Below, piece by piece: positions 40-12,070 of a stretch of 64,000 nt of DNA. The DNA is from a virus, in IMG/VR virus record IMGVR_UViG_3300042261_000652, positions 1 to 64,000 of that record; one strand, given 5' to 3'. The first letter of the stretch is position 1. Each line of letters opens with the position of its first letter. The position numbers and the translations under genes are program-made. The notes beneath the pieces are model-generated. The model worked only from the letters and a program-made list of their open reading frames with translations. It was not told where the DNA came from and did not search any database.

Positions 40-1557
40 TTATTTGGAAATATTAGCAACATGTAGGGGTTTAGATACTCCCTTGAAAAATATGTCATAG
101 GTTCGGTGTTCTCTATCTACGACAATTTTTTCAATCATTCCTCTTAGTATCTCCCTAAGTTCAAGTTTCTTGCTTTCATCATTCCACATTTTTTTGAATT
201 CTTCTGTCTTGATTTGAACAATGTATTCATCAATGGGAATGGTTCCTTTTAGTTGAACGGTTTCTTTATCAATATTTTCGAGAAGTTTTTTCTCAATGAC
301 TTCAAAATCCCTTAACTTGTTTACGACCATTGTAGGTGGCGATTGGTTGTCTATGATAATATCTGTGAGTTTTTGGATTTGGATTCTGACTTCTCCAAGT
401 TCTTTTTCATACTTCTCCAAGTTGGAAACGTTGACGGGTTCCGACTTTTCTTTGGCAAGTTTACGAATGGGTTCCTCACACGTTTCCATAACCGATGATA
501 AACTTTTAATGAGTTCAACCTCTTTGATTCCTACTCCATCACACGACCCATCATTCATAGAACCGATACAGCATAGATAGACATAATAATGTTTGTGTCC
601 CCGCTTTCCAGTTCCATGACGAACCAAACTTCGTCCACACTTACTACATTTACATAATCCAGTGAATAGATTGATTTGAGAACCTTGGCGACCAACAAAA
701 GTTTTTCTTCGTTCGGTGCAGGTCTTTTGAACTTTGTAAAATAATTCCTCATCAACAATAGGTTTGAAGATTTTCATTTCGTTCTGTATTCCAGAATATG
801 ATTTAGGAAGATACCCAATGACCGCCTTATTGTGTAATAAGTTATACACGTTGGCAGGATTCCACTTGGCATTTGGATTTTTATTTCGGTTAAATGGTGG
901 AACTTGTTCTTGGTTTAACAAGGCAGTGATAGATGAACAACTCATTCCATTAGCAGAAAGATTAAAAATTCGTTGTATGACTTCTACTCTTTCAGGAATT
1001 TCAATATATTCGTTCTCACCGTTTTTTAACCAAATCGGGGGAAAATTGAGTTTCGTGAATTGTCCAGTTCCGATGGATTTCTTTTTGCCATACCAAGCAC
1101 TGGTGATACGTTCACTTTTCTTAATACTTTCATCATTGGCGATTTTACCTTGAACCAATATGTTTAGGTCTTTGTCATAATTCTTTTCAGTTAACTCGAT
1201 GTTATTACAGATGACGATTGCCTTCTTCTCTTCGGTGAGGATACTAAGTTCCCTTAACAATACTCCCAATCCTCGTCTGGTAATACGGTCAGTATTTTCT
1301 ACCAAAATGTAATCACCTTCTTTGACTATTTTCTTTAACCGACTAAATTCAGACCAAGGTTTAAGGTTCTCTCCCTTATAGGCAGATTTCCCATCATCCT
1401 TGAAAACACCAGCAAAATTAAGATGGCGTCGTTTTATTATATTGTCAGCGTATTGTATTTGTCTCCTTTCGGAGTCACGTCCAGTTTCTCCTTGGTCATC
1501 GGTTGACCATCGGATATAGGCATAGGCGTTCGGTCTTTTTGTTATTGTCTCATTCAT
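40..1557 (-). CDS. Large serine recombinase / integrase (resolvase catalytic domain + recombinase domain + zinc ribbon)
   Basis: N-terminus ...AYAYIRWSTDDQ... (catalytic Ser in the canonical YxRxSxxxQ context). Size ~500 aa. Cys cluster CKCSKCGRSL...C is typical of the zinc-ribbon domain of large serine recombinases. C-terminal coiled-coil-like region. Start moved to MNETITK (rc ATG at 1555-1557) from the longer 40..1668 ORF. Confidence 0.75.
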   Translation of the reverse strand: MNETITKRPNAYAYIRWSTDDQGETGRDSERRQIQYADNIIKRRHLNFAGVFKDDGKSAYKGENLKPWSEFSRLKKIVKEGDYILVENTDRITRRGLGVLLRELSILTEEKKAIVICNNIELTEKNYDKDLNILVQGKIANDESIKKSERITSAWYGKKKSIGTGQFTKLNFPPIWLKNGENEYIEIPERVEVIQRIFNLSANGMSCSSITALLNQEQVPPFNRNKNPNAKWNPANVYNLLHNKAVIGYLPKSYSGIQNEMKIFKPIVDEELFYKVQKTCTERRKTFVGRQGSQINLFTGLCKCSKCGRSLVRHGTGKRGHKHYYVYLCCIGSMNDGSCDGVGIKEVELIKSLSSVMETCEEPIRKLAKEKSEPVNVSNLEKYEKELGEVRIQIQKLTDIIIDNQSPPTMVVNKLRDFEVIEKKLLENIDKETVQLKGTIPIDEYIVQIKTEEFKKMWNDESKKLELREILRGMIEKIVVDREHRTYDIFFKGVSKPLHVANISK

Positions 1558-1815
1558 AAGTTCTTCCTTGACTTTTATTGTTACTGTGGTATAATAACCA
1601 CACAAGTATAAATATAATTGAAAATCCGAAAAACACGTTAAAATATCAAAAAGTGGACGCACAATCAACTCAGAGATACTTACAATTCTATAAATGCGAT
1701 TCTCGCAGATAAAGATTTTCAGAAATTTTTGCGATGGCGATTGAAACAGTCACCGACGGTATTATATAAATCAACCCTTGGCAAATTTAGAAATAAACGA
1801 AAGTATAGTTAATAT

Positions 1816-3309: not shown

Positions 3310-3404
3310 TGGTCCTGTAGCTGAAAGACAGCCGGTGCTCTTATAAAGCATTTAATCGCTAGATTGGCGTAAGATTCGGGAGCGTTACCCGACAGGACTA
3401 CCAC
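3310..3404 (+). tRNA. type II (long variable arm) tRNA-like gene, anticodon loop CTTATAA (anticodon UAU as read), CCA encoded
   Basis: Acceptor GGTCCTG/CAGGACT + A + CCA. D-stem GCTG/CAGC. Anticodon stem GTGCT/AGCAT. ~24-nt variable arm. T-stem TCGGG/CCCGA with atypical loop AGCGTTA. Confidence 0.4.
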
Positions 3405-5438: not shown

Positions 5439-5514
5439 ACTTCGGTAATTCAATTGGTAGAATACGATCCTTTTAAGATCGGAGTTGTGGATTCGAGTTC
5501 CACCCGGAGTACCA
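5439..5514 (+). tRNA. tRNA-Lys (anticodon TTT), CCA encoded
   Basis: Acceptor ACTTCGG/CCGGAGT + A + CCA. D-arm ATTC-AATTGGTA-GAAT. Anticodon stem CGATC/GATCG, loop CTTTTAA. T-arm GTGGA-TTCGAGT-TCCAC. Confidence 0.7.
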
Positions 5515-5522
5515 ATTTTAAA

Positions 5523-5609
5523 TCCCGCATTATGCTACTAAGGACGTAGCGCCGACTGTAAATCGGACACATTTATGTTGAGTAGGATCAATACCTACAT
5601 GCGGGACCA
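5523..5609 (+). tRNA. tRNA-Tyr (anticodon GTA), type II, CCA encoded
   Basis: Anticodon loop CTGTAAA on stem CCGA/TCGG. Stem-loop variable arm. T-stem GTAGG/CCTAC. Acceptor TCCCGCA/TGCGGGA + CCA. Confidence 0.45.
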
Positions 5610-5959: not shown

Positions 5960-6033
5960 GTTTATATAGATTAGTGGTAGATCCTCTGTCTTTCCAACAG
6001 ATGGCCCGAGTTCGATTCTCGGTATAAACACCA
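5960..6033 (+). tRNA. tRNA-Glu (anticodon TTC), CCA encoded
   Basis: Acceptor GTTTATA/TATAAAC + A + CCA. Anticodon stem TCTGT/ACAGA, loop CTTTCCA. T-arm CCCGA-GTTCGATT-CTCGG. Confidence 0.6.
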
Positions 6034-6082
6034 ACAAATTCATAATATTGAAAAATCAAAGTGAAATCGTCGGTTCGCTTAT

Positions 6083-6325
6083 ATGCATACTATGAAGCGA
6101 ATTGCAAAGACATCTCTTACTAACGTGGATGAAATTGACTATTCCAAGCCCATAAATTATTATCAGAAATTGATGAGAATTAGAATGAACAGCGCCATCC
6201 CCACCGCTTCGCAAGTATTTTGCGAGGAAAATATAAATAAGTTCGAAATTATTTATATGATTACGAAGAGTACCGCCAACTTATGCGTGATCCGTATCGG
6301 TCGTAAACCGAGAGCGGAAGAGTGA
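6083..6325 (+). CDS. hypothetical small protein
   Basis: 80-aa ORF between tRNA genes; no motif. Confidence 0.25.
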   Translation: MHTMKRIAKTSLTNVDEIDYSKPINYYQKLMRIRMNSAIPTASQVFCEENINKFEIIYMITKSTANLCVIRIGRKPRAEE

Positions 6326-6487
6326 CAAGCATGGAGAGACAGCACCAATCTGTTTGCGTATAGCACCGAAAAACGATACGTTGTGTAAACGCATTTCAAC
6401 CGCCGTGTTGTCGATAATTTAAAATCTAAAATAAACCCACTTTAGGGTTCAATGCCAAGGAGAAGTCTGGCTCGGCGATATTTTTAT

Positions 6488-6569
6488 GGTATCTGTAGCA
6501 TAATTGGTAATGCCCCGGATTGTGAGTCCGGCAAAAATAATGCGGATTCGAATTCCGTCAGATACCCCA
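6488..6569 (+). tRNA. tRNA-His (anticodon GTG) with encoded G-1, CCA encoded
   Basis: Extra 5' G before acceptor GTATCTG/CAGATAC + C + CCA. D-arm GCAT-AATTGGTAA-TGC. Anticodon stem CCGGA/TCCGG, loop TTGTGAG. Confidence 0.65.
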
Positions 6570-6613
6570 ATTAATTTAATTCTATTTGATAAAAAATCTA
6601 ATAATATAATAAT

Positions 6614-6717
6614 TTAATTGGTGCTTACTTTAATTGGTAATGAGGCGACACTGTTAATGTCGTGTATCCGGCCACCACACCGTATGGAAGTTCGAGTCCT
6701 TCCCTGTCAGCCAATTT
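6614..6717 (+). tRNA. atypical tRNA-like element carrying an Asn-type anticodon arm (CGACA-CTGTTAA-TGTCG) and an oversized 3' half
   Basis: D-loop-like TTTAATTGGTAA, canonical GTT anticodon arm and T-arm GGAAG-TTCGAGTC-CTTCC are present. ~25 extra nt lie between the anticodon and T arms and acceptor pairing is imperfect. A canonical tRNA-Asn(GTT) exists at 7141. Confidence 0.25.
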
Positions 6718-6721
6718 TAAT

Positions 6722-6809
6722 GGGCATATAATAGCACTGTCTTCTAAACAGTAATGCGTATAATTGGATTAATGAGAGTTCGAGTCTCTCTATGCCTGCC
6801 AAATTTAAT
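6722..6809 (+). tRNA. atypical tRNA-like element (acceptor GGGCATA/TATGCCT + G + CCA; anticodon-type hairpin ACTGT-CTTCTAA-ACAGT, i.e. TCT; D-loop-like AATTGGAT lies between the anticodon hairpin and the T-arm)
   Basis: Perfect acceptor stem, T-arm GAGAG-TTCGAGT-CTCTC and encoded CCA. Arm order appears to be acceptor/anticodon-like/D-like/T. Near-identical architecture recurs at 18213..18290. Confidence 0.3.
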
Positions 6810-6837
6810 ATCAATCCATCGGTATTAATGGGTCTAT

Positions 6838-6912
6838 AAGTCAAGCGGTAGACTGCAACTCTCTTAAAGTTGCGATTTCGGTTCGAATCCGAATGGACCC
6901 ACCATTTAATTC
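6838..6912 (+). tRNA. tRNA-Lys (anticodon CTT), CCA encoded
   Basis: Acceptor GGGTCTA/TGGACCC + A + CCA. D-arm AGTC-AAGCGGTA-GACT. Anticodon stem CAACT/AGTTG, loop CTCTTAA. T-arm TTCGG-TTCGAAT-CCGAA. Confidence 0.7.
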
Positions 6913-6918
6913 CCCATT

Positions 6919-6990
6919 CGTATAACGGCCATTACTTTCGGCTTTGGACCGAAAAATCTCTGTTCGATTCGGAGATGGGGAGCGTGTTAT
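6919..6990 (+). tRNA. tRNA-Gln (anticodon TTG) with U1:A72
   Basis: Acceptor TCCCCAT/ATGGGGA + G. Anticodon stem TTCGG/CCGAA, loop CTTTGGA. T-arm CTCTG-TTCGATT-CGGAG. U1:A72 is typical of bacterial tRNA-Gln. Confidence 0.6.
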
Positions 6991-7140
6991 AGTTTTATAT
7001 ATTTTGTAATACAAGCGGCAATTCGCTCTGTTAAGTAGCGGTGGTTCCAACCATCAAAACTGACGAATGACAACTTGAAAGTAAGTGCCATTTAAATAGA
7101 AAAGAGTATATTAGATTGATGAAAATGCGGCACTTTCAAT

Positions 7141-7215
7141 TCCACTCTAGCACAACGGTCGTGCGACGTGCTGTTAACACGTAAGATCTCCGTTCGAATC
7201 GGAGGGGTGGAGCCA
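7141..7215 (+). tRNA. tRNA-Asn (anticodon GTT), CCA encoded
   Basis: Acceptor TCCACTC/GGGTGGA + G + CCA. D-arm GCAC-AACGGTC-GTGC. Anticodon stem ACGTG/CACGT, loop CTGTTAA. T-arm CTCCG-TTCGAAT-CGGAG. Confidence 0.65.
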
Positions 7216-7551
7216 TTTTACATAATCAGGCGACCGTGAAAAGTCATCCCGATACAAAAGAGATTAGGGATTGGTAAAACGAGGAATCCCCTCCACTTAA
7301 TCATTGTCGCCAAAATGAATAATATGATTATGTGAAAATTTTAATACGTACAACAGATTCTTATTCAACATACAACATACAACTAGTTAAAACGTTGAAA
7401 AGTTAGTATACTAAAGCCGATAGACAAATAATGCGAGTATGAAGGTTAGATTCTTTCCCTGCCCACCAAGGGGGCAGGTAGACATAATGACAATGTCCGA
7501 GCATTTATGGGAACGCTTCGTGAAATCCGGCATAAATTTAATAATAGCAAT

Positions 7552-7625
7552 AGTCCTGTAACACAGTGGCAGTGCAGTCGTCCGATTAACGACCTACCTC
7601 AGTTCGATTCTGAGCAGGACTACCA
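7552..7625 (+). tRNA. tRNA (probable Ile, anticodon GAT; loop CCGATTA), CCA encoded
   Basis: Acceptor AGTCCTG/CAGGACT + A + CCA. Anticodon stem GTCGT/ACGAC. T-arm CTCAG-TTCGATT-CTGAG. Confidence 0.5.
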
Positions 7626-7661
7626 ATATTATTACAATAGTATTGGGCAATTAAAAAATAG

Positions 7662-8165
7662 TTGCATTTGATGGCATTACTAATATTTATCAGTATGACA
7701 TCTAAATTATTCGAATGCATTTCTGAGAATAAATTTCGCTTATCGAAAGATAATGAAACGTTGTATAGAAAAACTATTATTAAAATGGCGACGAACATTG
7801 CCAAGGAGTTGTGGGGAAAAGATGTGATAGTTAATTATCACACAGGTGATGGCGTTGATATTTTTCACTTCGAGATTACAAAACCGGAACAACAGGATGG
7901 TTCGAAAAATCAAAATCATCCCGATATGGGAGGTTCGTGGAACGACTTTGAGACGAGGTTTGCAGATAAAGGACCGGGCGATTCGTTCTATAATTTTTTG
8001 ACCGGTGGGACTTCATCCGCTAAACCATTTAATAAATGGCTGAGGTATTATAAAAAACGATGGGCGTGGAGCGAGGCATATAGCAGTATGCCATATACTT
8101 TTATTAAAACATTTGACAATTCGAAATTGAAAGCGAAGCTCGGTATTAAAAATGCCGAATATTAA
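7662..8165 (+). CDS. hypothetical protein
   Basis: 167-aa ORF (true start may be an internal Met); no motif. Confidence 0.35.
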   Translation: MHLMALLIFISMTSKLFECISENKFRLSKDNETLYRKTIIKMATNIAKELWGKDVIVNYHTGDGVDIFHFEITKPEQQDGSKNQNHPDMGGSWNDFETRFADKGPGDSFYNFLTGGTSSAKPFNKWLRYYKKRWAWSEAYSSMPYTFIKTFDNSKLKAKLGIKNAEY

Positions 8166-8210
8166 AACTTATAATATAAGTGGAGATATTCATTAGATAT
8201 TCATTATAAT

Positions 8211-8411
8211 ATGGAAGAGCAATATAAAATTGATCGGGAAGTCGCATATGTTGCGGCTGGCATAACAAAAGACGTTTTGGCAGAAGCACTATGGGAATAT
8301 GTGTTTGGTCAGCAGGATTCTAGTAAATCTACGTGTGATAGTATTCAAGCCAAACGTATGGAAATTAAAACGCTTTATCCCAAGCCGGATATCTCAAGTC
8401 GGACTGATTAA
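8211..8411 (+). CDS. hypothetical small protein
   Basis: 66-aa ORF. Confidence 0.25.
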   Translation: MEEQYKIDREVAYVAAGITKDVLAEALWEYVFGQQDSSKSTCDSIQAKRMEIKTLYPKPDISSRTD

Positions 8412-8629
8412 TTTAACGGAATGTAGCCTAAAAGTGAGGCACCTGTTTTGGGGACAGGATCAAGTGGGAGCATTACCCATCATTCCGAGGACACAGTGTA
8501 TTATACCTTCTCGTGGTTGTGTCTGAGTAATGCTAAAATAATACAGATTATGGATCAATGACTTTATATCCATTGTGAAGCAATACCTTTTTACAAAAAG
8601 AAAAAAATTCAGTAGGAATCATTCCATTT

Positions 8630-8833
8630 TTAGATATATTTGCCTGCCGAGTCGTCAATCCACAATTTTCCAATGTCGATTTTCCTCACTCGGTTTCTTA
8701 CTGCTTCTTTTGCGCTTGGGGTTAAATGATAGCGAACAGTGCTTTTGACACAACCAATTTCATCGGCAATTTTTGATTACTCCAAGTTGGAAACTGACGT
8801 TTCATATCTATTATTTTTTTCTTTTATATTCAT
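8630..8833 (-). pseudogene. HTH (sigma-70 region-4 / LuxR-type) regulator interrupted by one in-frame TAA (codon 19)
   Basis: Minus-strand reading: MNIKEKNNRYETSVSNLE-TAA-SKIADEIGCVKSTVRYHLTPSAKEAVRNRVRKIDIGKLWIDDSAGKYI*. The HTH helix IADEIGCVKSTVRYHL follows the stop in the same frame, and no alternative start lies between the stop and the helix. Confidence 0.4.
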
Positions 8834-9116
8834 AGGAATAAATATATGGACAAAACATCAGACATAAATGTTTCGTCCACGATAACCATTTTGAGATCCG
8901 AACGGCAATCAAAATTCACATGTTAAATGAAAATGCGGATCTCGGTCTTATTACGCTAGTAGGGAAGTAACCATTCTATATGAATGGCCTAGATGCGAAA
9001 ACATTGCTTAGACCTCCACGAAAGTGGATTGGCGGCTCCCTGCGGCACAGTAATTTAAGATGCGGACAGCAATAAAATAAATTTATTATTGGAAATAAAA
9101 AAACGCATCTTGTTAT

Positions 9117-9193
9117 CAGGATATAGTTCAGCTTAGTAGAACGCCAGTCTGGGGGGCTGGAGGTCATGGGAGCGAAGCCCATTATCCTGACCA
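9117..9193 (+). tRNA. tRNA-Pro (anticodon GGG) with C1:G72, CCA encoded
   Basis: Acceptor CAGGATA/TATCCTG + A + CCA. D-arm GTTC-AGCTTAGTA-GAAC. Anticodon stem CCAGT/GCTGG, loop CTGGGGG. T-stem ATGGG/CCCAT with unusual loop AGCGAAG. Confidence 0.5.
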
Positions 9194-9210
9194 TTACATT
9201 TCGACGATAA

Positions 9211-9477
9211 TTATTTAACTACCCCGCACGCAATTTTGCATCGTTTCTTCCCCACGCAAGGTTTATTTGTTATTTTGCAAATAAAGCAGGGCGAATAACA
9301 AGGCATGTCATCGTTTAGTTTAGTTATTTCTTGTTTTAATTGTTCGATTTCTTTATTTTTCTCGTGATTTTTGAAAATCGACAAGAACAACAAACCGCCA
9401 AATATAGTTCCCATTGTGATTATTAATGTCATAATTATAAATATAATAAGTTTATGGGACGGCGCAACAATTAACAA
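9211..9477 (-). CDS. small membrane protein (one TM helix + coiled-coil + Cys-rich tail)
   Basis: MTLIITMGTIFGGLLFLSIF hydrophobic helix, then KNHEKNKEIEQLKQEITKLNDD, then a CxxC-rich C-terminus. Confidence 0.3.
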   Translation of the reverse strand: MLIVAPSHKLIIFIIMTLIITMGTIFGGLLFLSIFKNHEKNKEIEQLKQEITKLNDDMPCYSPCFICKITNKPCVGKKRCKIACGVVK

Positions 9478-9491
9478 ATATTCGCATTTGG

Positions 9492-10235
9492 ATGGAGTTG
9501 GAATATCTATTTATACGTATGCAATTAAACGAAGGACCAATTTTAATTTCTGACGAAGATAGAAATATCATATCGAAATATATTAAAGATATGAAATCCA
9601 AGGTGGATGCTTTATTAAAAAGAAAACGAGGCATTCGGGAGAGGGATCTTTGCACTATTTTTCAGAAAATATCGGATGCGTCGAAATATAATTTATTTCC
9701 ATTTGAAATTCGCTATGAATATGAACAATTTGGGGGAATGAGTGCTTGTTATTATAAATCCACGAACACGGTTTATATGAACTTGGCATATATTGTTGAT
9801 ATAAAATCGTCCGACGATGATCCATATTGGGGACTTCCCGTAGTAGAATCTGTTAATTTTAAAAAATTCACGGAACTGTTTGCTCATGAATTTATTCATT
9901 ATATTCAACACGTTAGACGACAAGAAAAATCGGGAGAGTATGAAATTCCCGATACGTGGAATGATCGGGATAAATACTGGAAAAGGCCGTGGGAGCAGCA
10001 AGCACACGCAATTGAATATTTGGAAAAATTAAAACACGACTTAAAAATTAAAAAGCCCGGAGAAATTTTAAGCCAATTGAAAAAGATGGGAGTTCTTCAT
10101 AGAGTGGATTTGGATCAATTAAAGAAGTCGGATTATAAGTCGTGGAAGGCAATTATGAAGCAAGCAATAATGACTGCTCTTGCCGATATGGAGGGCGATG
10201 AAAGTCTCCCTTGGCAAAAAAGAAAATTGCCGTGA
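9492..10235 (+). CDS. putative ImmA/IrrE-family zinc metallopeptidase (HExxHxxxH)
   Basis: ELFAHEFIHYIQH motif (HEFIH...H), ~250 aa. Lies next to the HTH gene and upstream of the TnpB remnant. Confidence 0.4.
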   Translation: MELEYLFIRMQLNEGPILISDEDRNIISKYIKDMKSKVDALLKRKRGIRERDLCTIFQKISDASKYNLFPFEIRYEYEQFGGMSACYYKSTNTVYMNLAYIVDIKSSDDDPYWGLPVVESVNFKKFTELFAHEFIHYIQHVRRQEKSGEYEIPDTWNDRDKYWKRPWEQQAHAIEYLEKLKHDLKIKKPGEILSQLKKMGVLHRVDLDQLKKSDYKSWKAIMKQAIMTALADMEGDESLPWQKRKLP

Positions 10236-10444
10236 TGTATAACATAATTTAAAACCCCATACGCTTGAAATGATTGCAAGCATTTCGGACAAAGCGCATC
10301 ACTTGGGGTTATTTGACGACAGCAATGCACGTCAAGTTGTTGTTGGAACTTGTCCTTTCAATGACGATTCATTTGTAGATATAAGATGGGATCGCAACAA
10401 ATATAAATTTATATCTTTTTTATGATAGGTATGGTCGTATGTTG

Positions 10445-10480
10445 TGAATGCTCCCCTACCCTAAAGGGATAGGGGCTTCT
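10445..10480. mobile_element. IS200/IS605-family right-end subterminal hairpin (GTGAATGCTCCCCTACCCTAAAGGGATAGGGGC)
   Basis: Imperfect hairpin CCCCTACCCT-AA-AGGGATAGGGG overlapping the 3' end of tnpB. A second degenerate copy lies at 59467-59510. Confidence 0.45.
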
Positions 10481-11166
10481 ATGTTTCTTTTGGAAGCAAA
10501 AGAGTCCATTCCGACTCTTAAAATGTTTCTTGCGGCATTCAAATCTCGTCCAATATTCAATCCACAAACATTACATTTGTGTTGTCTATCGGAGAGTTCT
10601 TTCTTAACAATGCTGCCACATCCAGAACACATCTGACTCGTATAGGCAGGATTTACGTCCACCACTTCACAGCCAGCCTCTACCGCTTTACTATGTAGCA
10701 TTTGTCTAAACGTAGTCCATCCTGAGTCCAATATGCTCCTATTCAAACTTCGCCAGTTGTCATTCAACATCTGACTTGGTTTAATATCCTCTACACAAAC
10801 ATGAGAGTATTCGGTTACGAACTTCTTGCTCAACTTGTGTAGGAAATCTTTCCGTTGGTTCTTAATCTTACAATGTATTTTTACCAACGTATTCTTCACT
10901 CTAACCTTCTTTAGGTCGTCTTTAGGTTTAGTTTTCAACTCCGAATACTTTGCTTGTGTTTTGGAAAGTTCCTCTTGGGATTGCTTTAAGAAGTGAGGAT
11001 TAGAAATGGTAGCACGGCAGCACATACGCTGACAGATTGGTTCGAGTCCAAACGATTGATGTAGTAACTTTATTAATAAAACTCTGATAGGCGCAGTGTA
11101 CAAGGCGGAACATATAGTGAAATCCAGAAATATTTTTGAGCGTAGCTCAGTTGGTAGAGCAGACAC
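10456..11166 (-). pseudogene. tnpB: TnpB (IS605 OrfB family) remnant, 5'-truncated: RuvC-II, zinc finger and RuvC-III retained, N-terminal WED/REC/RuvC-I lost
   Basis: ...NQRKDFLHKLSKKFV...VCVEDIK...GWTTFRQMLHSKAVEAGCEVVDVNPAYTSQMCSGCGSIVKKELSDRQHKCNVCGLNIGRDLNAARNIL. The GIDLG (RuvC-I) position is degenerate (SFGLEP). The N-terminal ~35 codons overlap a plus-strand tRNA-like gene. Confidence 0.7.
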
Positions 11167-11229
11167 TCCGTTATCCGGTAAAAGACACCTAAAAAGGACG
11201 GAGGTTCAAGCCGTTGGTTCGAGTCCAAC
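11134..11229 (+). tRNA. tRNA-like gene with a ~21-nt insertion in the anticodon-arm region (canonical GCTC-AGTTGGTA-GAGC D-arm and GTTGG-TTCGAGT-CCAAC T-arm)
   Basis: Acceptor TTGAGCG/CGCCCGA (6 of 7 pairs). CTCCG...CGGAG stem encloses a 28-nt loop. Overlaps the truncated tnpB N-terminus. Confidence 0.25.
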
Positions 11230-11243
11230 CGCCCGATTATATT

Positions 11244-11318
11244 CGTTCCTTAGTTGAGTGGCCCAACGATGTTTTGATAAAGCATTAACACTGGTTCGAT
11301 TCCAGTAGGAACGACCAC
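11244..11318 (+). tRNA. tRNA-Ile (anticodon GAT), CCA encoded
   Basis: Acceptor CGTTCCT/AGGAACG + A + CCA. Anticodon stem ATGTT/AGCAT, loop TTGATAA. T-arm CTGG-TTCGATT-CCAG. Confidence 0.6.
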
Positions 11319-11344
11319 AATTTAAAAAAGGGCAGATTATTAAT

Positions 11345-11421
11345 GCAGGAGAAGCTCAATCGGATGAGCAAACGCTTGCGAAGCGTGAGGTTGGTGAGTT
11401 CGAATCTCCCGTCCTGTACCA
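11345..11421 (+). tRNA. tRNA-Arg (anticodon GCG as read)
   Basis: Acceptor GCAGGAG/GTCCTGT + A + CCA. D-arm GCTC-AATCGGAT-GAGC. Anticodon stem ACGC/GCGT, loop TTGCGAA. T-loop TTCGAAT. Confidence 0.5.
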
Positions 11422-11620
11422 AATTTAACACCATATGATATCCGTGCAAAGCGGGTAAAGTTTGTGGATCTTTTAGTGTAACAGTAGTATATTATGGGGG
11501 AGAAGAAGAAAATCCACTTTATGGGGATGTAGTATAAAGATGTAAATAATGCGCTTAAGAGAACTTCGAACTACGAGTAATCATCTAGTCTCGCCATCTC
11601 CGCCAATTTTAATAGTTTAA

Positions 11621-12070
11621 ATGCTATTTATAGTTATGATAAAATTAAAAGAACTGATAGAGATGATTTTTGATTCTGAAAGTGTTCCGCCCATCTTGTA
11701 TCATGGGACATTTAATAAATTAACCAATAAAATAAAGAAACATGGGCTAGTTCCGGGAGGAAGGGAAATTCAAAATTTTTCCGGAATAGAAGGGGGGGTT
11801 TATTTAGGATTAAATCCCGAGTATGCTGTCAGTATGGTAGAGGCGAGCGAAAATGATAGCATTCCTCCGAAATGGTTTGATGACATCGCCATCATCGCAA
11901 TAAATACATCAAAGATAGATTTATCAAAATTGGATATTGATCCGAATGTACTTCCACAGGAGGATGAATATGATGATGATATTCCGGCAGATGATACAGT
12001 ATATTCATTCATATATCGTGGGATAATTTCTCCAGATGCTATAATAAGCATCGACAGATATAGTTCATAG
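11621..12070 (+). CDS. ADP-ribosyltransferase-fold protein (H-Y-E class; Tpt1/KptA-, PARP- and diphtheria-toxin-like YHGT motif)
   Basis: ILYHGTFNKLTNKIKKHGLVPGG...GGVYLGLNPEY matches the LYHGT-x7-I-x2-x-GL-x-G core of KptA/Tpt1 and the YHGT of H-Y-E ARTs. Acidic C-terminal tail. Confidence 0.4.
   Translation: MLFIVMIKLKELIEMIFDSESVPPILYHGTFNKLTNKIKKHGLVPGGREIQNFSGIEGGVYLGLNPEYAVSMVEASENDSIPPKWFDDIAIIAINTSKIDLSKLDIDPNVLPQEDEYDDDIPADDTVYSFIYRGIISPDAIISIDRYSS

What the first reader, a model, noticed from the sequence alone, without database searches (positions are those of the whole stretch)
6722..6809. Two copies of a non-canonical tRNA-like architecture (acceptor / anticodon-type hairpin / D-loop-like hairpin / T-arm)
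At 6722-6809 and again at 18213-18290 the same unusual element occurs. There is a perfect 7-bp acceptor stem with encoded CCA, an identical T-arm (GAGAG-TTCGAGT-CTCTC), and a hairpin with a textbook anticodon loop (CTTCTAA or CTTCGAA, i.e. Arg TCT or TCG). The anticodon-type hairpin directly follows an 8-nt linker after the acceptor. The conserved D-loop sequence (GCG-YAT-AATTGGA-T-TAAT-GAG) sits AFTER it, just before the T-arm. A third related oddity at ~6614-6717 has an Asn-type anticodon arm. These may be arm-permuted or degenerate tRNAs, or tRNA-like decoys or regulators.
Basis: seen in the sequence. Interest (0 to 1): 0.6.

Follow-up and report, generated by a model that had tools for sequence, protein, structure and literature searches.

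The report
Rewired tRNAs with a transposed D-segment
The two elements are arginine tRNA genes whose D-arm piece sits after the anticodon arm instead of before it, and the same non-cloverleaf wiring is conserved in hundreds of phages (including well-known E. coli phages) and some bacteria but is missed or mislabelled by standard tRNA finders.

Summary
Window 6722-6801 (anticodon UCU) and 18213-18291 (UCG) each have a 7-bp acceptor stem, a normal anticodon arm, a normal T arm and an encoded CCA. They have no D hairpin between the acceptor and anticodon stems. A D-loop sequence (UAAUUGGA) lies just 5' of the T arm instead.

ARAGORN misses both copies. The Rfam tRNA model scores them just above threshold, with the D arm deleted and a 17-18 nt insert.

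Over 150 relatives were recovered from viral contigs, cultured phages (phi92, Salmonella SSBI34, Agrobacterium Atu_ph04, Streptomyces Mildred21 and others) and bacterial genomes. The nucleotides after U8-A9 pair with the nucleotides just before the D-loop sequence, so this D-like helix encloses the anticodon arm. Two of its pairs are Watson-Crick in 107/107 distinct sequences, with four pair types each.

The order is that of a canonical tRNA with block 10-21 moved to just before position 48. Equivalents of U8, A14, G18-G19, A20 and the 15-48 pair are kept.

Anticodons are almost all Arg, with a few Ile that mostly lack A20. They complement the canonical tRNA-Arg genes nearby.

Best reading: functional, chargeable tRNA-Arg with a new topology. 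I found no description in the searchable literature. The "third oddity" is unrelated: a decayed long-variable-arm tRNA-Asn.

The parts
6722..6801 (+). Rewired tRNA-Arg(UCU), whole gene including encoded CCA
   Evidence: Sequence. Rfam tRNA 35.5 bits with D arm deleted. Family model R1 72.0 bits. Not called by ARAGORN.
6722..6728 (+). Copy 1 acceptor stem, 5' strand (GGGCATA). Pairs with 6791-6797 (TATGCCT).
   Evidence: Read. Acceptor pairs covary across the family: 97.6-97.8% paired.
6729..6730 (+). Copy 1 U8-A9
   Evidence: T and A are invariant in 107/107 distinct family members. Neither position was part of any search pattern.
6731..6735 (+). Copy 1 'down strand' (ATAGC), equivalent to canonical positions 22-26. 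6732-6733 pair with 6760-6759. 6734-6735 pair with 6757-6756, with G6758 bulged. A6731 can pair with T6761.
   Evidence: Read. The two homologous pairs are Watson-Crick in 59/59 sequences and 107/107 sequences, with 4 pair types each.
6736..6752 (+). Copy 1 anticodon arm: ACTGT / CTTCTAA / ACAGT. Anticodon TCT is at 6743-6745.
   Evidence: Stem pairs covary.
6753..6760 (+). Copy 1 spacer (AAT) plus 'up strand' (GC-G-TA), equivalent to variable-loop positions 44-47 followed by canonical 10-12
6761..6773 (+). Copy 1 single-stranded D-loop-like segment TAATTGGATTAAT (U13, A14, A15, U16, U17, G18, G19, A20 ... A, U48 equivalents)
   Evidence: Same D-loop as the window's canonical tRNA-Arg(CCU), AATTGGAT. 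Column conservation. 15/48 covariation. No conserved internal hairpin.
6774..6790 (+). Copy 1 T arm: GAGAG / TTCGAGT / CTCTC
6791..6801 (+). Copy 1 acceptor 3' strand (TATGCCT), discriminator G6798, CCA 6799-6801
18213..18291 (+). Rewired tRNA-Arg(UCG), whole gene including encoded CCA
   Evidence: Sequence. Rfam tRNA 32.2 bits with D arm deleted. R1 75.5 bits. Not called by ARAGORN.
18213..18221 (+). Copy 2 acceptor 5' strand (GGACACG, pairs with 18281-18287) plus U8-A9 (18220-18221)
18222..18226 (+). Copy 2 'down strand' ATGGC. 18223-18224 pair with 18250-18249. 18225-18226 pair with 18247-18246, with G18248 bulged. A18222 can pair with T18251.
   Evidence: Relative to copy 1, the second pair changes A-T to G-C on both sides. 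The MFE fold of copy 2 contains this helix.
18227..18243 (+). Copy 2 anticodon arm: GCTGT / CTTCGAA / ACAGT. Anticodon TCG is at 18234-18236.
18244..18250 (+). Copy 2 spacer (TT) plus 'up strand' (GC-G-CA)
   Evidence: (this sequence is the first row of alignment A2).
18251..18263 (+). Copy 2 D-loop-like single strand TAATTGGAATTAT
18264..18291 (+). Copy 2 T arm (18264-18280), acceptor 3' strand (18281-18287), discriminator A18288, CCA 18289-18291
23683..23757 (+). Context: canonical tRNA-Arg(CCU) of the same genome. Its D-loop is the sequence that is displaced in the rewired copies.
   Evidence: ARAGORN. Sequence.
11345..11418 (+). Context: canonical-type tRNA-Arg(GCG), missed by ARAGORN. With CCU, UCU and UCG it gives four different Arg anticodons in the window.
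   Evidence: Rfam tRNA 36.8 bits, loop UUGCGAA.

Best explanation
Both elements are genes for arginine tRNAs (anticodons UCU and UCG) built on a conserved non-cloverleaf connectivity. It is a three-way junction.

Secondary structure (shown):
1. A 7-bp acceptor stem is followed by an invariant U8-A9.
2. Next comes a 5-nt strand, equivalent to canonical 22-26, that runs straight into a normal anticodon arm.
3. After the anticodon arm comes a 3-5 nt spacer, the variable-loop equivalent.
4. A short strand, equivalent to canonical 10-12/13, then pairs back with the strand that follows A9. The resulting D-stem-like helix encloses the anticodon arm.
5. The chain continues as a single-stranded D-loop sequence (U-A14-A15-U-U-G18-G19-A20...A-U48) that runs directly into a normal T arm.

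In canonical numbering the order 1-9 | 10-21 | 22-47 | 48-76 has become 1-9 | 22-47 | 10-21 | 48-76.

Tertiary fold (inferred):
- The RNA still folds into an L. The D-like helix stacks on the anticodon stem. The layer count matches the canonical arm: 5 anticodon pairs + 1 junction layer + 3 pairs + the N10/U13 layer = 10, the same as 5 + 26/44 + 4.
- G18-G19 dock on the T loop. U8-A14 and the 15-48 pair form.

Function (inferred):
- ArgRS reads A20, C35 and the discriminator and charges the RNA with arginine.
- EF-Tu and the ribosome use it to read AGA(/AGG) and CGA/CGG. These codons make up about 61% of Arg codons in this window.
For: Architecture:
- There is no D hairpin, and the D-loop motif lies before the T arm.
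- Only these two sequences in the window fit the family model: 72 and 75.5 bits, against 31 bits or less for every other tRNA.

D-like helix:
- Counting by fixed anchors, with no structure assumed, gives 110/113 and 94/113 paired in register. Other registers give 5-47%.
- On a MAFFT alignment that is ungapped over this region, the two pairs are 59/59 Watson-Crick (CG31 GC14 UA13 AU1; GC31 CG20 AU6 UA2). The whole structure is 95.6% paired, against 39-45% when slid by 1-3 columns.
- On the model-fitted alignment the two pairs are 107/107 Watson-Crick.
- Copy 1 and copy 2 differ by an A-T to G-C double change in this helix.

Tertiary core:
- U8 and A9 are invariant in 107/107, although neither was in any search pattern.
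- The equivalents of positions 15 and 48 covary: A/U 157, G/C 4, other 2.
- The D-loop is identical to that of the window's canonical tRNA-Arg(CCU).

Arg identity and use in decoding:
- Family anticodons are UCU, UCG, ACG, CCU, GCG and CCG, plus a few GAU/UAU/CAU.
- A20 is present in 99/99 Arg-type members. Among the 8 Ile-type members only 3 have A20; the other five have U (4) or G (1).
- Of 56 rewired Arg genes with a canonical tRNA-Arg in the same locus, 5 share its anticodon, against 18.5 expected (P<1e-4).
- In 7/7 loci with two rewired copies, the two anticodons differ.
- The window holds canonical CCU and GCG plus rewired UCU and UCG, which together cover all six Arg codons.
- AGA, CGA and CGG are 31%, 19% and 11% of the window's Arg codons.

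Distribution:
- Verified members occur in Escherichia phage phi92, Salmonella SSBI34, Agrobacterium Atu_ph04, Stenotrophomonas SOVA965 and Streptomyces Mildred21.
- 243 phage records match the SSBI34 copy.
- In the phi92 array stretch examined, no tRNA-Arg is annotated.
- Members also occur in bacterial genomes outside recognisable prophages.
Against: - No expression, end-mapping, modification or charging data exist for any member.
- The L-shaped fold rests on counting layers and on conserved or covarying tertiary positions. No model or probing supports it directly.
- The D-like helix is short. Only two pairs are universal and the third forms in about 60% of members. RNAalifold does not predict it. 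The MFE fold of copy 1 uses a different local hairpin.
- The conservation of TAAT, GGA, ATG and the T loop is inflated. The collection scans demanded those motifs, and demanding GGA also biases the sample towards Arg.
- Loci are not phylogenetically independent, so the permutation P value is optimistic.
- tRNAscan-SE could not be run. One pipeline labels the E. coli phage homologue 'tRNA-OTHER'.
Confidence: 0.7

Rival explanations
1. tRNA-like decoy or regulator. The RNA mimics tRNA-Arg to soak up a host anticodon nuclease, a modification enzyme or ArgRS. It is not itself used in translation.
For: - The fold departs from every tRNA that bacterial translation is known to use. The abstract of PMC11551756 states that all known bacterial tRNAs are canonical.
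- Phage tRNAs are known to counter tRNA-targeting defences, as in the papers listed (for example PMC11464382 and PMC10264068).
- There are no charging data.
Against: - A decoy has no need to avoid duplicating the anticodons of neighbouring canonical tRNA-Arg genes, yet overlap is 5 against 18.5 expected.
- A decoy has no need to span all six Arg anticodons.
- A20, the discriminator, the 7-bp acceptor stem, the encoded CCA and an EF-Tu-type T arm are all retained.
- In the phi92 array stretch examined, the rewired gene is the only Arg-anticodon tRNA gene.
Confidence: 0.15
2. D-armless tRNA with a self-contained long variable arm. This is the reader's four-hairpin picture, like a class II tRNA that has lost its D arm. 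The D-loop-like stretch would form its own hairpin and no helix would enclose the anticodon arm.
For: - In the two window copies the stretch can form a short hairpin (TAAT/ATTA and ATAAT/ATTAT).
- The MFE fold of copy 1 uses such a hairpin.
Against: - Across 112 relatives the stretch has no more self-complementarity than shuffled versions (mean best stem 2.73 vs 3.13).
- The enclosing helix covaries perfectly.
Confidence: 0.04
3. Decaying tRNA pseudogenes or assembly chimeras with no function.
For: - ARAGORN does not call them.
- The Rfam scores are only just above threshold.
- A genuine tRNA pseudogene lies next door at 6619-6710.
Against: - More than 150 distinct sequences come from independent contigs, isolate phages and isolate bacteria.
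- All four helices show compensatory changes: 404 and 788 double-change cells, with 0/500 shuffles reaching the observed value.
- The loops and tertiary positions are invariant.
Confidence: 0.02
4. An ordinary cloverleaf that was mis-read, or a permuted/intron-containing gene that is processed into a canonical tRNA.
For: Permuted and split tRNA genes that mature into canonical tRNAs are known in other lineages (own knowledge: Cyanidioschyzon merolae, Nanoarchaeum).
Against: - The Rfam model can align the copies only by deleting the D arm.
- The segment after the D-loop motif is not complementary to the strand before it.
- The acceptor strands are at the two ends in normal order, so this is not a circular permutation.
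- Restoring canonical order would require excising and re-inserting an internal block. No known RNA processing pathway does that (own knowledge).
Confidence: 0.02

Closest known systems
Canonical bacterial/phage tRNA-Arg (Rfam RF00005), e.g. the window's own tRNA-Arg(CCU) at 23683-23757 and phage T4 tRNA-Arg(UCU)
   Same: - 7-bp acceptor stem, 5-bp anticodon stem with a CUNNNAA loop, T arm with a GTTCGA loop, discriminator and CCA.
- The same D-loop sequence AAUUGGAU with A20.
- The same presumed role of supplying Arg decoders, including the rare AGA reader.
   Different: - Block 10-21 lies 3' of the anticodon arm rather than 5' of it.
- The D-like helix encloses the anticodon arm, giving a three-way junction instead of a four-way junction.
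- There is no free variable loop crossing to the T stem.
- The molecule is about 3 nt longer.
D-arm-lacking mitochondrial tRNAs (mammalian mt-tRNA-Ser(AGY); nematode mt-tRNA-Ser(UCU)), reviewed in PMC7609411
   Same: No hairpin lies between the acceptor and anticodon stems, only a short connector.
   Different: - The mitochondrial tRNAs have lost the D-loop/T-loop interaction. They are shorter and more flexible and depend on co-evolved mitochondrial partners (PMC7609411).
- The family here keeps the D-loop sequence, the G18-G19, A14 and 15/48 equivalents and a D-like helix.
- It occurs in phages and bacteria.
Class II tRNAs (Leu, Ser, Tyr) with a long variable arm
   Same: About 20 nt lie between the anticodon stem and the T stem, which is how the Rfam model accommodates them.
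   Different: - The class II variable arm is an independent hairpin, and a normal D arm is present.
- Here the extra stretch is not a hairpin, and part of it pairs with the 5' connector.
allo-tRNAs with 8/4 or 9/3 acceptor/T branches (PMC5389517)
   Same: They are non-canonical tRNAs of bacteria and phages, found by mining metagenomes and missed by standard tools.
   Different: They keep the four-arm cloverleaf connectivity and change only helix lengths. Here the helix lengths are standard and the connectivity changes.
Circularly permuted tRNA genes (Cyanidioschyzon merolae; own knowledge)
   Same: The gene order of tRNA segments differs from the canonical order.
   Different: - There the 3' half precedes the 5' half, and processing yields a canonical tRNA.
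- Here the two ends are in normal order and an internal block is transposed.
- The covarying helix shows that the colinear RNA is the folded product.

Membership tests
tRNA (Rfam RF00005) | Score at or above the curated gathering threshold (29 bits) | tested here: met
   35.5 bits (6722-6798) and 32.2 bits (18213-18288). Neither copy appeared in the whole-window gathering run with default filters.
tRNA (Rfam RF00005) | 7-bp acceptor stem with discriminator and 3' CCA site | tested here: met
   Family-wide, 97.6-97.8% of acceptor cells are paired, with covariation.
tRNA (Rfam RF00005) | 5-bp anticodon stem with a 7-nt loop, U33 and purine 37 | tested here: met
   Loops CTTCTAA and CTTCGAA. U33 and A37 are present in 107/107 members.
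tRNA (Rfam RF00005) | T arm with the T54-Psi55-C56 sequence and A58 | tested here: met
   GAGAG-TTCGAGT-CTCTC. Invariant across the family, partly because the scans required it.
tRNA (Rfam RF00005) | D-arm hairpin (10-13 : 22-25 with loop 14-21) between position 9 and the anticodon stem | tested here: not met
   Only 5 nt separate A9 from the anticodon stem. The Rfam alignment deletes 15 D-arm positions. ARAGORN makes no call.
tRNA (functional definition) | Aminoacylated by a cognate synthetase and used by the ribosome | not testable with these tools
   Only indirect evidence: A20 and C35 retained, anticodon complementarity.
tRNA-Arg isotype | Arg anticodon (C35 with U/G36) plus the A20 identity element (A20 as the major ArgRS determinant: Shimada et al. 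2001, PMC61076, title seen) | tested here: met
   Anticodons UCU and UCG. GGA is present in both copies and in 99/99 Arg-type relatives, though the scan pattern required GGA.
D-arm-lacking mitochondrial tRNA (type III mt-tRNA) | Loss of D-loop nucleotides and of the D/T-loop interaction; mitochondrial origin | tested here: not met
   The D-loop sequence is retained at a new position, and the 15/48 equivalents covary. The sources are phages and bacteria.
Class II (long variable arm) tRNA | Self-complementary variable-arm hairpin together with a normal D arm | tested here: not met
   No excess self-complementarity in the extra segment. No D arm.
Circularly permuted tRNA gene | The 3' half is encoded upstream of the 5' half, so the acceptor strands are adjacent in the gene | tested here: not met
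   The acceptor 5' and 3' strands lie at the two ends of each element.

The most novel reading that the evidence does not exclude
The transposed-D fold may be an evolved insulation device. It keeps every surface read by ArgRS (or IleRS), EF-Tu, RNase P and the ribosome. It removes the contiguous D hairpin and the variable-loop strand that host tRNA-targeting nucleases, or modification and decay enzymes, would read. Phages would then carry these genes as defence-proof Arg/Ile decoders. Some bacteria carry them too, for example the tandem tRNA-Arg(GCG) + rewired tRNA-Arg(UCG) pair in Rhodobacteraceae and Rhizobiaceae. That pair could read the whole CGN box without the A34-to-I editing that tRNA-Arg(ACG) needs. 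If true, the bacterial translation machinery routinely accepts a second, topologically distinct tRNA core.
Probability: 0.3. Interest if true: 0.95.

Novelty: new variant of a known kind. Interest (0 to 1): 0.85.

Why it matters
- **tRNA structure.** The cloverleaf connectivity is treated as universal outside animal mitochondria. [quoted passage not shown] This family has standard helix lengths but a different strand order. It appears to preserve the tertiary core, so it would be a natural experiment on which features of tRNA are topology and which are geometry.
- **Annotation.** ARAGORN of 124 copies. GenBank records leave the gene blank or label it tRNA-Phe, tRNA-Ser or tRNA-OTHER. Phage tRNA repertoires, and codon-usage arguments built on them, are therefore systematically missing Arg decoders. 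The phi92 array stretch examined shows no annotated tRNA-Arg.
- **Testability.** Members sit in E. coli K-12 phages that are already in culture, so charging, decoding and nuclease sensitivity can be tested directly.
- **Synthetic biology.** It is a ready-made non-canonical scaffold that bacterial machinery probably already accepts.

Tried and rejected
- **Close relatives of the window.** Megablast of window 6000-12000 against GenBank phages gave no match. blastn of copy 1 alone gave none either.
- **A faulty scan.** The first anticodon-agnostic collection scan used a pattern that was 1 nt out of register (ATGNNNNGTTCGA). It returned only chance hits in coding sequence, so L021-L140 are junk.
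- **My first parser.** It reported zero good hits for the same reason.
- **RNAalifold.** It does not predict the short D-like helix. I therefore tested the helix by explicit pair counting instead.
- **Shared chromosomal context.** I asked whether the alphaproteobacterial tandem pair sits in one conserved neighbourhood. It does not: the uvrC/pgsA/moaE neighbours of L264 are absent from L278, L280, L329 and L372.
- **HNH endonucleases.** An HNH endonuclease gene abuts the rewired tRNA in Mildred21, SOVA965 and SSBI34. This is not general: 6 of 139 loci.
- **E. coli chromosomes and plasmids.** No copy was found among 5,426 complete genomes.
- **Literature.** Seven full-text searches with different vocabularies found no description of this architecture. 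The library lacks most subscription journals, so this is not proof of absence.
- **Considered and rejected.** A canonical fold with a shifted D arm; an intron; a class II variable arm; a pseudogene. See the rival explanations.
Full report
**What is in the window**

The 64-kb window is a phage-like genome with 38% G+C. It carries PhoH, a serine recombinase, a TnpB-like ORF and a major-vault-protein-like ORF. It also carries a long tRNA array. ARAGORN tRNAs, and the Rfam tRNA model adds two more at 11136-11237 and 11345-11418.

The two flagged elements are real:
- Copy 1 is 6722-6801: GGGCATA-TA-ATAGC-ACTGT-CTTCTAA-ACAGT-AATGCGTA-TAATTGGATTAAT-GAGAG-TTCGAGT-CTCTC-TATGCCT-G-CCA.
- Copy 2 is 18213-18291: GGACACG-TA-ATGGC-GCTGT-CTTCGAA-ACAGT-TTGCGCA-TAATTGGAATTAT-GAGAG-TTCGAGT-CTCTC-CGTGTCT-A-CCA.

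ARAGORN calls neither copy. The Rfam tRNA model scores them 35.5 and 32.2 bits against a threshold of 29. It can do so only by deleting the 15 D-arm positions and inserting 17-18 nt before the T arm.

**Relatives**

A pattern taken from the two copies found 19 viral contigs, all with the same layout. It hit the limit again in bacterial and archaeal genomes.

I built a covariance model (R1) from 59 sequences. In the window it scores the two copies 75.5 and 72.0 bits and nothing else above 31 bits. It recovers 112, 53 and 38 members in the three batches of fetched loci.

ARAGORN calls only 3 of 124 copies.

Cultured phages carry the element:
- Streptomyces Mildred21, annotated tRNA-Phe(gaa).
- Agrobacterium Atu_ph04, Stenotrophomonas SOVA965 and Salmonella SSBI34.
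- Escherichia phage phi92.
- 243 phage records match the SSBI34 copy: 136 Escherichia, 45 Salmonella and 37 Klebsiella. Almost all are unannotated and a few are labelled tRNA-OTHER.

**The structure**

The 5 nt after the invariant U8-A9 (N10-N14) and the nucleotides just 5' of the UAAU motif are complementary.

- *No structure assumed.* I counted from two sequence anchors only. N11 pairs with position -1 in 110/113 sequences and N12 with -2 in 94/113. All other registers give 5-47%.
- *Structure-blind alignment.* On a MAFFT alignment with no gaps in this region, the two pairs are Watson-Crick in 59/59 sequences, with four pair types each. A third pair forms in 25/59. The full four-helix structure is 95.6% paired, against 39-45% when partners are slid by 1-3 columns.
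- *Model-fitted alignment.* The two pairs are 107/107 Watson-Crick and the third forms in 64/107.
- *The window copies.* Here the helix is longer: T-A, A-T or G-C, a bulged G, G-C and C-G, plus a possible A-T with the U of UAAU. The two copies differ by one double change. The MFE fold of copy 2 contains this helix.

The D-loop-like stretch has no conserved internal hairpin. The RNA is therefore a three-way junction: the acceptor stem, a D-like helix that encloses the anticodon arm, and the T arm. A single-stranded D-loop sequence joins the D-like helix to the T stem.

**Reading it in tRNA numbering**

- The strand after A9 is 5 nt in 91 of 115 parsed sequences and 6 nt in 22. Five is the length of canonical 22-26.
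- The strand before UAAU takes the place of 10-12, and the U of UAAU takes the place of 13.
- Next come A14, A15, U, (U), G18, G19 and A20, then a few nucleotides, then A-U immediately before G49.
- The window's canonical tRNA-Arg(CCU) has the same D-loop, AAUUGGAU.

The order 1-9 | 10-21 | 22-47 | 48-76 has therefore become 1-9 | 22-47 | 10-21 | 48-76, with 2-4 linker nucleotides added.

The helical arm still has ten layers: 5 anticodon pairs, one junction layer, 3 pairs, and the N10/U13 layer. The canonical arm has 5 + the 26/44 layer + 4.

From the known yeast tRNA-Phe core (own knowledge), each new junction joins residues that lie in the same or adjacent layers: 8/9 to 22, 43/44 to 10, and 21 to 48. 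An L shape is therefore sterically plausible. This is inference.

One tertiary contact can be tested. The equivalents of 15 and 48 are A/U in 157 members. In four of the five members with G15, position 48 is C. Those members were found by the model, not by the patterns. This is the behaviour of the Levitt pair.

U8 and A9 are invariant, although no search pattern demanded them.

**Function**

Anticodons found are UCU, UCG, ACG, CCU, GCG and CCG, which is every Arg anticodon. A minority are GAU, UAU and one CAU.

The nucleotide after G18-G19 is A in 99/99 Arg-type members. Among the 8 Ile-type members it is U in 4, A in 3 and G in 1. A20 is the major ArgRS identity element (Shimada et al. 2001, cited). 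GGUU is the D-loop of E. coli tRNA-Ile (own knowledge).

Rewired genes complement their neighbours:
- 56 rewired Arg genes have a canonical tRNA-Arg in the same locus. Only 5 share its anticodon, against 18.5 expected under permutation.
- Seven loci carry two rewired copies. The two anticodons always differ.
- The window has canonical CCU and GCG and rewired UCU and UCG, which cover all six Arg codons.
- AGA, CGA and CGG are 61% of Arg codons in the window's 33 longest ORFs.
- In the phi92 array stretch examined, no tRNA-Arg is annotated.

These patterns fit working decoders. A sponge would have no need for them. Nothing here shows expression or charging.

**Beyond phages**

R1 finds members in bacterial genomes. 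These include the isolates Ensifer sesbaniae, Rhizobium rosettiformans, Phyllobacterium sp. and Rhodobacteraceae IMCC 34051.

In five alphaproteobacterial genomes a canonical tRNA-Arg(GCG) is followed by the rewired tRNA-Arg(UCG), 1 nt later in the one read directly (L264). The pair lies among ordinary chromosomal genes, and the neighbourhood differs in each genome. Other bacterial copies lie in tRNA arrays that look prophage-like.

**The third oddity**

Window 6619-6710 has a normal D arm, a GUU anticodon and a roughly 22-nt variable region. Intact relatives in three viral contigs are tRNA-Asn with a paired long variable arm and a good acceptor stem. The window copy has a broken acceptor stem and a T-stem mismatch. 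It scores 22.6 bits with Rfam and 12.4 bits with R1. It is a decayed member of a different unusual family.

**Comparison with what is known, and novelty**

The nearest known things are:
- canonical tRNA-Arg, which has the same parts in a different order;
- D-armless mitochondrial tRNAs, which also lack a D hairpin but have lost the D/T interaction (PMC7609411);
- class II tRNAs, which also have a long stretch before the T arm, but there it is a hairpin;
- allo-tRNAs, which are also non-canonical but keep the cloverleaf (PMC5389517);
- circularly permuted tRNA genes, which are processed into canonical tRNAs.

The family passes the Rfam tRNA threshold but fails the D-arm criterion. Seven literature searches found no description of it. 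The library is incomplete. I rate it a new variant of a known kind.

**Caveats**

- The scans demanded TAAT, GGA, ATG and the T-loop sequence. Conservation at those positions and the dominance of Arg are therefore partly built in.
- The loci are related to one another, so cell counts and the permutation P value overstate independence.
- The alignments are fitted to the model. The key result also holds on the anchor-based counts and on the MAFFT alignment.
- tRNAscan-SE was not available.

Noticed in passing
window 6619-6710: Decayed tRNA-Asn(GUU)-like gene with a normal D arm and a roughly 22-nt variable region. Its acceptor stem is broken and its T stem has an A-C mismatch. Intact relatives with a paired long variable arm occur in L382 (about 5480-5600), L383 and L384.
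   Followed up: yes
viral loci L001-L020, L141-L258, L379-L384; window 3311-3403: Phage tRNA arrays hold many tRNAs of at least 84 nt from isotypes that are normally short. Examples: Asn(GUU) 16 of 56, Ile(UAU) 11 of 22 (including the window's 93-nt tRNA-Ile(UAU)), and some Pro, Met, His, Glu, Lys, Thr and Gly. I did not determine whether the extra length is a long variable arm or an insert.
   Followed up: partly
window 11345-11418: tRNA-Arg(GCG) with a canonical layout. Rfam finds it (36.8 bits) but ARAGORN misses it. It has A8 rather than U8.
   Followed up: partly
window 11136-11237 and 10456-11166 (-): A tRNA-like sequence (Rfam 35.5 bits) carries a 42-nt insertion in the anticodon region. 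It overlaps the start of a TnpB/IS605 OrfB-like ORF (Pfam Cas12f1-like_TNB and OrfB_IS605) that sits inside the tRNA array. It may be an intron or an insertion remnant.
   Followed up: no
L002:2956-3032, L002:3619-3695, L143:3838-3915, L155:2428-2504, L184:4010-4090, L226:7511-7591, L249:2786-2862: The same rewired architecture occurs with Ile anticodons (GAU, UAU) and once with CAU. Most have GGU(U) instead of GGA after the G18-G19 equivalents. The fold is therefore not restricted to Arg, and the identity nucleotide changes with the anticodon.
   Followed up: partly
L264 6990-7146 (-), L278 1344-1499, L280 7153-7308, L329 1124-1280, L372 127-283: In Rhodobacteraceae and Rhizobiaceae genomes a canonical tRNA-Arg(GCG) is followed by a rewired tRNA-Arg(UCG). 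The pair sits in different, non-prophage-looking neighbourhoods (uvrC/pgsA/moaE; M23 peptidase/bactofilin; flavin monooxygenase; NrtR). Together the pair could read the whole CGN box without inosine.
   Followed up: partly
L020 1059-1493, L381 955-1491, L379 1297-1656, also L001, L006, L201: An HNH (homing) endonuclease ORF lies within 5-150 nt of the rewired tRNA in several phages. Homologues of these three HNH proteins lie that close in only 6 of 139 loci.
   Followed up: yes
window 20212-22755: An 847-aa ORF matches the major vault protein shoulder domain (Pfam PF11978, 1e-21) and a vault repeat. This is unusual for a phage-like genome.
   Followed up: no
L385 (phi92) 361-511 and 2243-2329; GenBank annotations under: Annotations of the rewired gene are inconsistent: blank in most records, tRNA-Phe(gaa) in Mildred21, tRNA-Ser in Alishewanella phages and tRNA-OTHER in pharokka-annotated coliphages. 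phi92 also lists two 'hypothetical tRNA' features that I did not examine.
   Followed up: partly
window 40-1668 (-), 16881-17678, 27727-28479: A large serine recombinase, a sulfotransferase-family ORF and a PhoH-like ATPase flank the tRNA region. No close relative of the window was found in the GenBank phage collection (megablast of 6000-12000 and blastn of copy 1).
   Followed up: no
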